From Tequatrovirus BCH953P2, in the sequence record OZ035785.1: DNA of 64,000 bases. One strand, 5' to 3'. The notes below the pieces were generated by a model. That model did no database searches, had not been told where the DNA came from, and saw only the letters and a list, made by a program, of their open reading frames with translations. Below, one piece after another: positions 58,083-59,422 of the stretch. Every line of letters starts with the position of its first letter. Position 1 is the first letter of the stretch. A program made the position numbers and the translations under genes.

Positions 58083-58862
58083 TTAATTAAAAATATATAC
58101 TTCATCAGTTCCATTCTTTTCTTTGGAATGATATATGTTAAAGACGTATTTTTTATTAAGATGCTTAACATTATATTTTTTAGACCATTCTTTAAGAAGA
58201 GTGTTTTCCTTTCCGTGATGCTCTAAAACATTCGACAGCCCAAATTTTATTCCTCTATCATTTAAAGAGTCTAAAAGATTTAAAAGGTCTTTTTCTTCTT
58301 CTTCTGACCAAAATTTATTATAATCAGCAACTGTTATAAGATATGGAGGGTCCACATATACAAAATCGCCGTCTAGAATTTTGACATCTTTAAAATGCAA
58401 TGAACTAAAGATTATTTTATCACAATTTTGTTTAAAGTGATTAAAGCGTTTTTCACTATTTTTGTTTATAGTTCTTTTTCCAAATGGAGTAGTAAAATTT
58501 CCTTTATCGTTTATACGAATCATATTACTAAATCCGTGAAAATGAAGAACATAAAGTAAAAGAGGATCTCTAGTTTTATTATAATCTTCACGTAATTTCA
58601 AAAACTCTTCTTTTGATGTTTTTGATAGTTTATATTGCTTTATTACTTTTAATACGTCATCCCATGATACATTAATAAGACGCTTATACATTTCAATAAT
58701 TGGTTCTTGAATATCATTGGCCAATACAGGACCATTGACGTTCAAAGACACTGATAAACCTCCACAAAATAAATCCACGAATCTGTCATATTTTGGAAAA
58801 TGAGGCTTAAGTTCAGGTAATAATGATTGTTTATTACCTGTATACGCGATAGCTCCTAGCAT
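58083..58862 (-). CDS. dam: DNA adenine methyltransferase Dam (GATC)
   Basis: 259 aa; N-terminal AdoMet-binding FxGxG-type motif DLFCGGLSV; catalytic DPPY. Confidence 0.9.
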
Positions 58863-59422
58863 TATATTCTCTCATTTATTGCAGCAAAAAACGAATTATA
58901 CAATTCTTCATCATATGTATTTGATAGTAATACTAACACGTTTTGTGATTTAGCATATTCATTAAACCTTGCTTGGATGGTTGGATTATCAGTAAATGAT
59001 TCTCTTTTTGTCCATTTATTACGTGGATAATATCCGCATGGCAAAAAATCTAATATCATCAATGACACAGGGTTTTCAGTTTTTGTGTATTCTTTTAATT
59101 TCTCTTTATCTTCTAAATATATTCCAACCGAATCAATAGCTGTACCTCCACCAACTTGATGTTTAATTTCAATTATATGCTTTTTACCATTGCGAGAAAT
59201 AACAATATCAAATCTTCTAGTACGCTTCTTAGTTATAAAATTCGAACAAAATAAATTATTTGATTTTTCAGTATCATCGGTTAAAACCATTTTTTCTTGA
59301 TAACTAACTGAACAATCAGTGAAATATTCTTTTACTTTATTAAGTATGAAATTTTCAACCACGGCAGATATTTTATATGAATCTCCGTTTAAAGCCATTT
59401 CATGCACAGTTTTATTAATCAT
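58862..59422 (-). CDS. hypothetical protein with PD-(D/E)xK-like motif, translationally coupled to dam
   Basis: 186-aa ATG ORF with GAGGA Shine-Dalgarno; stop overlaps the dam ATG (TAATG); contains [18 protein letters not shown] (D-x12-E-x-K). Confidence 0.55.

What the first reader, a model, noticed from the sequence alone, without database searches (positions are those of the whole stretch)
58083..59422. Nuclease-motif ORF translationally coupled to the Dam methyltransferase gene
The 186-aa ORF at 58862..59422 has its own GAGGA ribosome-binding site and ends in TAATG, sharing one nucleotide with the dam start codon, so the two are likely co-translated. It carries [18 protein letters not shown], a D-x12-E-x-K arrangement typical of PD-(D/E)xK nucleases. 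A nuclease-fold protein coupled to an orphan GATC methyltransferase would resemble a restriction-modification-like or methylation-sensing nuclease pair, which is not the textbook picture of T-even dam. It could instead be a conserved T-even hypothetical ORF whose motif is coincidental; I cannot tell from memory whether T4 has an ORF here.
Basis: partly seen in the sequence, partly recalled or inferred. Interest (0 to 1): 0.55.

Follow-up and report, generated by a model that had tools for sequence, protein, structure and literature searches.

The report
Phage restriction enzyme paired with Dam
The small gene just upstream of the phage's Dam methylase very probably encodes a restriction-type DNA-cutting enzyme, so the two genes form a mobile restriction-modification cassette, and phage T4's textbook 'orphan' Dam looks like what remained after a 548-bp deletion destroyed the partner gene.

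Summary
A 186-aa ORF (59422..58862, minus strand) has a GAGGA ribosome-binding site and a stop codon that shares one base with the dam start codon. It carries D72-x12-E85-x-K87.

The family is tiny and was found only in T4-like phages. In all seven diverged cassettes examined (30-63% identity), the ORF abuts or overlaps a T4-Dam-like methyltransferase. These cassettes sit at three or more different genomic loci.

Among about 503 Tequatrovirus records:
- About 150 have both genes.
- About 320, including T6, have neither.
- None was seen with the nuclease alone.
- T4 has dam plus a 28-codon remnant, left by a 548-bp deletion between 8-bp repeats.
- T2, G29 and ESCO58 carry frameshifted nuclease genes with intact dam.

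The best reading is a phage-borne type II restriction-modification cassette, probably GATC-specific. Enzyme activity, specificity and biological role are untested. One GenBank record already labels the ORF "putative DpnII restriction endonuclease", and I found no paper on it.

The parts
58084..59510 (-). The whole cassette (leader with promoter, nuclease gene and dam), about 1.43 kb, defined as the segment absent from cassette-free relatives such as Shfl2 and T6
   Evidence: Shfl2 matches the window up to 59511 and resumes at 58083. Shfl2 and T6 run 61, then dam.1, then 56, with neither gene.
59534..59559 (-). Terminator-like hairpin with a T-run downstream of primase gene 61, which separates the cassette from the upstream transcription unit
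   Evidence: 11-pair stem followed by TTTTTGT. This is a consensus scan only.
59448..59476 (-). Sigma-70 / T4-early-type promoter-like site (GTTTACT, 17 nt, TG-n-TATTAT) upstream of the nuclease ORF
   Evidence: and the sequence. It lies inside the segment deleted in T4. Its function is inferred, not shown.
59430..59434 (-). GAGGA ribosome-binding site, 7 nt before the ATG
58862..59422 (-). 186-aa ORF: predicted PD-(D/E)xK restriction-type endonuclease (PHROG 8706, 'unknown function')
59162..59209 (-). Codons D72 to K87 ([17 protein letters not shown]), the putative catalytic beta-hairpin. They are followed by the invariant H88-Q89-x3-G93-T-A-I-D-S98.
   Evidence: Invariant columns in the alignment of members down to 32% identity. 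The residues lie on strands 67-77 and 80-88 of the model.
58860..58864 (-). TAATG stop/start overlap that couples the nuclease ORF to dam
   Evidence: Abutting or overlapping stop/start (0, 1, 1, 4, 7, 20, 35 nt) in all seven cassettes examined.
58083..58862 (-). dam, a D12-class GATC N6-adenine methyltransferase and the presumed cognate modification enzyme
   Evidence: The T4 record's note says it methylates GATC in modified or unmodified cytosine DNA.
58950..59497 (-). The 548 bp missing in phage T4. The deletion removes the promoter, the RBS and codons 1 to 158 of the nuclease ORF. It is bounded by 8-bp direct repeats ATCACAAA at 59497..59490 and 58949..58942.
   Evidence: T4 keeps one repeat copy (as ATCGCAAA) plus codons 159-186 as unannotated sequence.

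Best explanation
The 186-aa ORF encodes a small, single-domain PD-(D/E)xK endonuclease of the type II restriction kind (alpha-branch, MunI/EcoRI-like architecture, with a catalytic core distantly like DpnII). Together with the translationally coupled Dam methyltransferase it forms a two-gene restriction-modification cassette, expressed early from its own promoter.

Proposed mechanism, all of it inferred:
- Dam methylates GATC in the phage's own hydroxymethylcytosine DNA.
- The nuclease cuts GATC that lacks N6-methyladenine.
- Virion DNA enters already methylated, and the Dam-positive host chromosome is also methylated. The only substrates left in an infected cell are DNAs that escape Dam, chiefly co-infecting or superinfecting phages, including the roughly two-thirds of T-even relatives that have no dam.

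The cassette behaves as a mobile, selfish accessory module within T4-like phages. The nuclease gene decays readily while dam persists, and that is how T4's 'orphan' Dam arose.

What is shown: the fold, the conserved catalytic residues, purifying selection, the strict linkage and co-divergence with Dam, joint gain and loss, and the T4 deletion.

What is inferred: catalytic activity, GATC specificity, blocking by methylation, and the anti-competitor role.
For: Fold:
- The AF2 model has pLDDT 79.9 and pTM 0.78, with alpha-beta-beta-beta-alpha-beta order.
- All Foldseek hits against PDB are PD-(D/E)xK nucleases.

Catalytic residues: E23, D72, E85 and K87 are invariant in members down to 32% identity.

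Sequence similarity:
- Pfam DpnII is hit by 4 of 8 members. The best is 22.5 bits against a 23-bit cut-off, and the hits always fall on profile positions about 143-235.
- PADLOC REase_II model PDLC03548 gives E = 9.7e-5.

Selection: dN/dS is about 0.16-0.30.

Linkage:
- All seven diverged cassettes have a T4-Dam-like methyltransferase (50-72% identical to this Dam) abutting or overlapping the nuclease stop codon.
- The cassettes sit at three or more loci: 61|56, denB|ndd, and upstream of rIIA.
- Nuclease and methyltransferase identities co-vary, r = 0.77.

Presence and absence:
- In Tequatrovirus, 503 records share the locus, 183 have dam, about 150 have the intact nuclease, about 320 have neither, and no nuclease-only record was seen.
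- In Jiaodavirus, 6 of 151 records carry the pair, and the rest lack about 1.4 kb, which equals both genes.

Nuclease decay with dam intact: the T4 deletion, the T2 frameshift, and G29 and ESCO58.
Against: - No biochemical or genetic data exist.
- Every sequence match to known restriction-enzyme families is below the curated threshold.
- The profile comparison with EcoRI is negative.
- Foldseek ranks generic PD-(D/E)xK nucleases (VC1899, AF1548, Bax1) above restriction enzymes.
- The phage's glucosyl-hydroxymethylcytosine DNA may already resist such an enzyme, which would make Dam protection redundant.
- The host is Dam-positive, so a GATC enzyme has no host target, and the proposed role rests on reasoning alone.
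- GATC is three-fold depleted in this phage and equally in a phage without the cassette, so that signal does not discriminate.
- The absence of nuclease-only phages could simply reflect that the two genes are gained and lost as one block.
Confidence: 0.6

Rival explanations
1. Methylation-dependent nuclease (DpnI-like logic). The enzyme would cut G(m6A)TC in cytosine-containing host DNA. Phage Dam would ensure full methylation of the host chromosome, and the phage's own DNA would be protected by glucosyl-hydroxymethylcytosine. The pair would then be a host-DNA demolition device.
For: - It would give the enzyme an abundant target in Dam-positive hosts.
- The promoter is of the early type.
- The phage lineage already degrades cytosine DNA with other nucleases (established T4 biology).
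- Linkage to Dam is equally compatible with this reading.
Against: - The protein is a single 186-aa nuclease domain. DpnI uses a winged-helix or other methyl-reading module, and none is present (no such Pfam hit).
- The weak sequence hits are to DpnII, which is blocked by methylation, and not to DpnI.
- T-even Dam also methylates the phage's own DNA (T4 record note), so self-damage would have to be prevented by the cytosine modification alone.
- The repeated pattern of nuclease loss with methyltransferase retention is the classical decay path of restriction-modification systems.
Confidence: 0.12
2. A free-standing homing-type or otherwise site-specific selfish endonuclease that mobilises the cassette, with dam as linked cargo. 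Its target would be unrelated to GATC or to methylation.
For: - It has a sporadic, cassette-like distribution between conserved genes in two genera and at three loci, like the seg and mob genes of T-even phages.
- It sits next to a SegF-like GIY-YIG gene region that is known for marker exclusion (annotation; established T4 biology).
Against: - A homing enzyme targets one specific site in the empty allele. This cassette occupies three unrelated loci, yet the nuclease stays recognisably the same family and is always attached to the same methyltransferase family.
- Nuclease and methyltransferase co-diverge.
- Stop/start coupling is conserved.
- The structural neighbours are orthodox type II enzymes.
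Confidence: 0.1
3. A nuclease-fold protein with another role, for example a strand-specific GATC nicking or repair enzyme in the manner of MutH, a Dam-associated DNA-binding or regulatory partner, or a catalytically dead relic.
For: - PD-(D/E)xK folds serve many functions, and Foldseek's best hits are uncharacterised proteins and repair nucleases.
- No sequence hit reaches a curated threshold.
Against: - The catalytic E, D, E and K residues are invariant and the gene is under purifying selection, which argues against a dead relic.
- The gene is dispensable and repeatedly lost, which is unlike a core repair or regulatory function.
Confidence: 0.12

Closest known systems
DpnII / MboI-type GATC restriction-modification systems (Pfam PF04556 endonuclease plus a Dam-family methyltransferase)
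   Same: - A Dam-family GATC methyltransferase is paired with a PD-(D/E)xK endonuclease.
- There is weak but recurrent sequence similarity. It covers the DpnII segment that aligns with this ORF's helix and D...E-x-K hairpin, which is presumably the DpnII catalytic core.
   Different: - It is below Pfam's gathering score (16.8 bits; best family member 22.5, against 23).
- It matches only about 90 of the 278 profile positions. The protein is about 100 residues shorter and lacks the DpnII N-terminal half.
- The gene order is nuclease first, with overlapping genes.
- There is a single methyltransferase.
- It is found only in virulent T4-like phages.
MunI / EcoRI group of type IIP enzymes (alpha-branch PD-(D/E)xK)
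   Same: - The size is similar (MunI chain 200 residues).
- The D-x(12-19)-E-x-K hairpin is shared.
- By eye, the E-x-K-H-Q-G and G-x-A-I-(D/E) strings resemble EcoRI's EAKHQG and GNAIER (EcoRI sequence verified).
   Different: - There is no significant profile similarity to EcoRI (hhalign probability 0.4%).
- Those enzymes recognise AATT-core hexamers and pair with other methyltransferases.
- The motif resemblance is a lead, not a test.
Chlorovirus PBCV-1 R.CviAI (A579L) / M.CviAI (A581R)
   Same: It is a virus-encoded, early-expressed restriction-modification pair acting on GATC with N6-adenine methylation (PMC7248222, Table 1). This is the clearest precedent for a lytic virus that carries its own GATC system.
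   Different: - It is a eukaryotic algal virus.
- No homology between the two nucleases was shown here.
- From my own knowledge, the chlorovirus enzymes are thought to degrade unmethylated host DNA. The host here is Dam-methylated, so the target must differ.
T4 Dam as the textbook phage 'orphan' methyltransferase
   Same: The methyltransferase here is the same protein family at about 97% DNA identity. PADLOC's 'orphan methyltransferase' model PDLC03722 matches it at 606 bits. A review lists T4 Dam among orphan enzymes (PMC12707154).
   Different: Here, and in about 150 other phage records, it is not an orphan. T4's solitary state results from a 548-bp deletion between 8-bp repeats, which left 28 codons of the nuclease gene.
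Free-standing homing endonuclease genes of T-even phages (seg and mob genes)
   Same: It has a patchy, cassette-like distribution between conserved core genes, with likely selfish spread during mixed infection.
   Different: It has a different fold (not GIY-YIG or HNH). It always travels with a methyltransferase. It occupies several unrelated loci rather than homing to one.

Membership tests
PD-(D/E)xK nuclease superfamily | Alpha-beta-beta-beta-alpha-beta core fold | tested here: met
   [not shown]
PD-(D/E)xK nuclease superfamily | Acidic residue on strand 2 and (D/E)-x-K on strand 3, conserved across the family | tested here: met
   D72, E85 and K87, plus E23 on the first core helix, are invariant in 8 members down to 32% identity.
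PD-(D/E)xK nuclease superfamily | Significant match to a curated sequence model | tested here: inconclusive
   PDDEXK_11 is hit by 3 of 8 members at E = 0.026-0.087, below the cut-off.
Type II restriction-modification system | Endonuclease gene adjacent to a DNA methyltransferase gene and inherited with it | tested here: met
   Seven of seven diverged cassettes show this, at three or more loci. Joint presence or absence holds in two genera. Co-divergence is r = 0.77.
Type II restriction-modification system | The endonuclease cleaves the methyltransferase's recognition site and is blocked by its methylation | not testable with these tools
   This needs enzyme assays on dam-plus and dam-minus DNA.
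Type II restriction-modification system | The endonuclease is not found without its methyltransferase, while solitary methyltransferases arise by nuclease loss | tested here: met
   The record sets with any part of the ORF and with dam coincide: 182 against 183 once the Klebsiella phages with their own pair are set aside. Nuclease lesions with intact dam occur in T4, T2, G29 and ESCO58. I did not check dam for frameshifts in every record.
DpnII restriction endonuclease family (Pfam PF04556) | Score at or above the Pfam gathering threshold (23 bits) | tested here: not met
   The window protein scores 16.8 bits. The best family member, P0009, scores 22.5 bits. Four of eight members hit the model at all.
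DpnII restriction endonuclease family (Pfam PF04556) | Full-length domain architecture (about 278 positions) | tested here: not met
   Only profile positions about 143-235 are matched. The protein has 186 residues.
EcoRI / MunI-like alpha-branch type IIP enzymes | Close structural similarity of the whole domain | tested here: met
   [not shown]
EcoRI / MunI-like alpha-branch type IIP enzymes | Detectable sequence-profile homology | tested here: not met
   hhalign of the family alignment against EcoRI gives probability 0.4% and E = 0.16 on an irrelevant segment. I could not obtain the MunI sequence.
DpnI-like methylation-dependent (type IIM) enzymes | A winged-helix or other methyl-adenine reading domain in addition to the nuclease domain | tested here: not met
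   The model is a single domain. No such domain appears in the Pfam, NCBIfam or PADLOC scans.
Free-standing homing endonucleases of T-even phages | GIY-YIG or HNH catalytic motif, and one fixed homing site | tested here: not met
   The fold is PD-(D/E)xK. The cassette occupies three unrelated loci. Only the patchy distribution fits.

The most novel reading that the evidence does not exclude
The cassette is a weapon of phage-against-phage conflict, adapted to hypermodified DNA. The nuclease would cut unmethylated GATC even in glucosyl-hydroxymethylcytosine DNA. A T-even phage carrying it would then destroy or out-recombine superinfecting and co-infecting T-even relatives that lack dam, which are about two-thirds of the genus.

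This would explain three things at once:
- why T-even phages have a Dam that works on modified DNA;
- why the nuclease is never seen without it;
- part of the three-fold GATC depletion across the whole gene pool.
Probability: 0.25. Interest if true: 0.8.

Novelty: new variant of a known kind. Interest (0 to 1): 0.6.

Why it matters
From my own knowledge, the role of Dam in T-even phages has been an open puzzle since the 1960s-70s: dam mutants of T2 and T4 grow normally, and reviews file T4 Dam as an orphan methyltransferase. If the upstream ORF is its cognate restriction enzyme, three things follow.

- Dam's presence has a simple origin. It arrived as half of a mobile restriction-modification cassette.
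- T4 is the degenerate case, not the archetype.
- It would be a restriction system carried by a strictly virulent phage with hypermodified DNA, in a host whose own DNA is already protected. That points to phage-phage competition rather than host defence or host-DNA degradation.

The protein would also found a new, very small (186 aa) restriction-enzyme family, possibly able to act on modified DNA, which could be useful as a reagent. All of this can be tested directly with standard cloning and digestion experiments.

Tried and rejected
1. **Getting true DpnII-family sequences for a profile-profile test.** I searched plasmids with the Dam protein and inspected eight neighbourhoods. All were AlwI-type, FokI-type or unannotated systems, so no DpnII sequence was obtained. 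The DpnII link therefore rests on sub-threshold HMM hits only.
It found no new members.
3. **Profile comparison with EcoRI**, after verifying the sequence against the PDB. The result was negative, so the ExKHQG / GxAI(D/E) resemblance is kept only as a lead.
4. **GATC depletion as evidence for the enzyme's specificity.** Depletion is real (O/E 0.33, the lowest of all 256 tetramers) but identical in cassette-free Shfl2 (0.32). From my own knowledge, GATC avoidance is also known in other coliphages and is usually attributed to host Dam/MutH. I rejected it as a discriminator.
5. **Flanking repeats as a mobility mechanism.** I found only chance-level AT-rich 11-mers at the cassette ends.
6. **Search for a cellular origin.** There were no relatives in E. 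coli complete genomes, plasmids, or 185,579 species genomes. IMG/VR and metagenome scans returned only near-identical or KPV15-like loci.
7. **Sequence search of the PDB** with the protein and with the profile gave nothing.
8. **The afdb50 fold library** was unavailable.
9. **Literature searches** found no paper on this ORF. The MunI structure paper and the review of phage orphan methyltransferases were not held.

Full report
**1. The observation**

The window is from a T-even phage (Tequatrovirus). On the minus strand the order is:
- primase gene 61 (60747..59719);
- the 186-aa ORF (59422..58862);
- dam (58862..58083);
- dCTPase gene 56;
- a SegF-like GIY-YIG ORF;
- soc.

The GAGGA site lies 7 nt before the ATG. 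The TAATG stop/start shares one base between the two genes.

The bare motif is not significant. Seven of the window's 73 ORFs of at least 100 aa contain D-x12-E-x-K. The form embedded in hydrophobic strands occurs only in this ORF.

**2. What the protein is**

Database matches:
- PHROGs places the ORF in family 8706, 'unknown function'.
- Pfam gives only sub-threshold hits: DpnII restriction endonuclease (16.8 bits, cut-off 23) and BanI.
- Across eight family members, four hit DpnII. The best scores 22.5 bits. The hits always fall on profile positions about 143-235 of 278, the part that aligns with the ORF's first helix and D...E-x-K hairpin.
- PADLOC's type II REase model PDLC03548 hits at E = 9.7e-5 over the equivalent region.
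- NCBIfam and sequence searches of the PDB give nothing.

Structure:
- An AlphaFold2 model built on the family alignment is fairly confident (pLDDT 79.9, pTM 0.78). It has the alpha-beta-beta-beta-alpha-beta order of PD-(D/E)xK nucleases, with D72 on the second strand and E85/K87 on the third.
- Foldseek agrees on the superfamily but not on the subfamily.
- According to a review, MunI, EcoRI, NgoMIV and Cfr10I belong to the alpha-branch of these enzymes, and MboI (GATC, DpnII family) uses the same framework as PspGI, EcoRII, NgoMIV and Cfr10I (PMC4081073).

Conservation and selection:
- E23, D72, E85, K87 and the following H-Q-x3-G-T-A-I-D-S are invariant in members as low as 32% identical.
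- The gene is under purifying selection, with dN/dS about 0.16-0.30. Synonymous sites are near saturation, so the ratio is approximate.

**3. The family and its partner**

The family is very small. An exhaustive HMMER profile search of 1.84 billion representative proteins found 12 hits. Two word-indexed searches of 5.8 billion clusters added none. There are no relatives in E. coli genomes, plasmids or 185,579 species genomes.

Every context that can be placed is a T4-like phage. In every one of seven diverged cassettes, the ORF is immediately followed by a D12-class methyltransferase that is 50-72% identical to this Dam. The stop and start codons abut or overlap by 0, 1, 1, 4, 7, 20 or 35 nt.

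The cassettes occupy at least three different loci:
- after the primase gene (this phage, P0002, P0006);
- between denB and ndd in Klebsiella phage KPV15;
- just upstream of rIIA (L004).

Nuclease and methyltransferase divergences co-vary (r = 0.77), and the nuclease evolves faster.

**4. Distribution**

Among 503 phage records that share the 3' end of gene 61:
- 183 carry dam;
- about 150 carry the intact ORF;
- about 320 carry neither and run straight from gene 61 to gene 56, as in Shfl2 and T6.

The records containing any part of the ORF are the same set as those containing dam. No nuclease-only phage was seen.

Relative to Shfl2, the insert is window 58084..59510.

In Jiaodavirus the pattern repeats. 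Six of 151 records have the pair, and the others lack about 1.4 kb, which corresponds to both genes.

**5. T4, T2 and T6**

- T4 lacks 548 bp that lie between two copies of ATCACAAA (59497..59490 and 58949..58942). The deletion removes the promoter-like site, the RBS and codons 1-158. It leaves codons 159-186 as unannotated DNA upstream of dam. T4's solitary Dam is therefore derived.
- T2 has a -1 frameshift in a T-run that replaces the last residues and uncouples the genes by 13 nt.
- G29 and ESCO58 have internal frameshifts in the nuclease gene with dam intact.
- T6 has neither gene.

Repeated nuclease loss with methyltransferase retention is the usual way orphan methyltransferases arise from restriction-modification systems. 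That statement is established knowledge of such systems, not a result obtained here.

**6. Expression signals**

A terminator-like hairpin follows gene 61 (59559..59534). A promoter-like site, GTTTACT-17-TATTAT with an upstream TG, lies at 59476..59448. From my own knowledge, this resembles T4 early promoters. These are consensus matches only.

**7. Mechanism and role**

The shown facts fit a type II restriction-modification cassette. The specificity is most simply GATC, for two reasons. From my own knowledge, Dam of T2 and T4 is experimentally a GATC enzyme, and the T4 record says so. The only sequence similarity of the nuclease is to DpnII-type enzymes.

Virion DNA enters already methylated, and the enterobacterial host is Dam-positive. 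The remaining unmethylated GATC in an infected cell would belong to other invading DNA, especially T-even relatives without dam. I therefore infer a role in competition between phages, or simply selfish maintenance. This is reasoning, not evidence.

It is unknown whether the enzyme can cut hydroxymethylcytosine DNA. The fact that this Dam acts on modified DNA hints that protection is needed, but does not show it.

GATC is the most depleted tetramer in the window (69 observed, 209 expected). It is equally depleted in cassette-free Shfl2, so it cannot be used as evidence either way.

**8. Rivals**

- A methylation-dependent enzyme that demolishes Dam-methylated host DNA is attractive biologically. 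It is disfavoured by the single-domain architecture and by the DpnII-type rather than DpnI-type similarity.
- A homing-type nuclease with dam as cargo fits the patchy distribution. It does not fit the multiple loci, the constant partner or the co-divergence.
- A repair, regulatory or dead protein is disfavoured by the invariant catalytic residues, the purifying selection and the gene's dispensability.

**9. Comparison with what is known, and novelty**

The protein fails the Pfam DpnII membership test and shows no profile similarity to EcoRI. I therefore treat it as a separate, uncharacterised family of restriction-type nucleases with an alpha-branch, MunI-like fold.

Virus-borne GATC restriction-modification has a precedent in chlorovirus PBCV-1 (PMC7248222).

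One GenBank record (phage Shinka) already annotates the ORF as 'putative DpnII restriction endonuclease'. All other records call it hypothetical. I found no paper that discusses it. A review and PADLOC treat T4 Dam as an orphan. My literature access was limited to open-access papers.

**10. Verdict**

The new points are these:
- the pair is a mobile cassette confined to T4-like phages;
- the nuclease is never seen without Dam;
- T4's orphan Dam is a deletion relic.

Activity, specificity and biological role need experiments. Interest is 0.6.

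Noticed in passing
window 59522..59722 (+ strand): A 66-aa hydrophobic ORF lies on the opposite strand, convergent with primase gene 61, and overlaps its stop codon by 4 nt. It matches PHROG 2024 (E = 6.9e-31). It is conserved in about 500 relatives whether or not they carry the cassette. It is annotated 'dam.1' in T6 and RB32ORF030w elsewhere, but is unannotated in the T4 reference record. 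The terminator-like hairpin for gene 61 lies inside it.
   Followed up: partly
whole window (64 kb) and L020 (Shfl2 1-50000): GATC is the most under-represented of all 256 tetramers: 69 observed against 209 expected, O/E 0.33. It is equally depleted (0.32) in a relative that has neither dam nor the nuclease. The cause is unresolved. It could be host Dam/MutH, host restriction, or GATC nucleases circulating in the phage gene pool.
   Followed up: partly
window 56843..57532 (-): A 229-aa ORF overlaps the 3' end of gene 56, in the position of T4 segF (a GIY-YIG homing endonuclease). It had no Pfam hit at E <= 1. Shfl2 and T6 carry soc.1 and soc.2 there instead, and gene 56 is only about 74% identical between this phage and Shfl2, against 97% for gene 61.
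   Followed up: no
L021 (phage T2, MH751506, 15998..16543): The classical T2 strain carries the nuclease gene with a -1 frameshift in a T-run. The C-terminus changes from FFAAINERI to FLLQ-stop, and the overlap with dam is lost. T4 and T2, two of the three classical T-even lab phages, therefore both have lesions in this gene, and the third, T6, lacks the cassette entirely.
   Followed up: partly
L016 3390..4420 (metagenomic T4-like contig carrying P0006): Downstream of this cassette there is a second small ORF matching PHROG 1277 ('DNA methyltransferase', E = 1.5e-42) and carrying a weak TraT Pfam hit, followed by a DUF5384 gene. This neighbourhood differs from the one in this window.
   Followed up: no
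P0010 and P0016 (protein database entries): P0010 (175 aa) is a chimera in which the last 30 residues of this ORF are fused to an unrelated asparagine-synthetase-like sequence. P0016 is a 765-aa repetitive protein that matches residues 141-182 seven times. Both are probably assembly or gene-calling artefacts.
   Followed up: no
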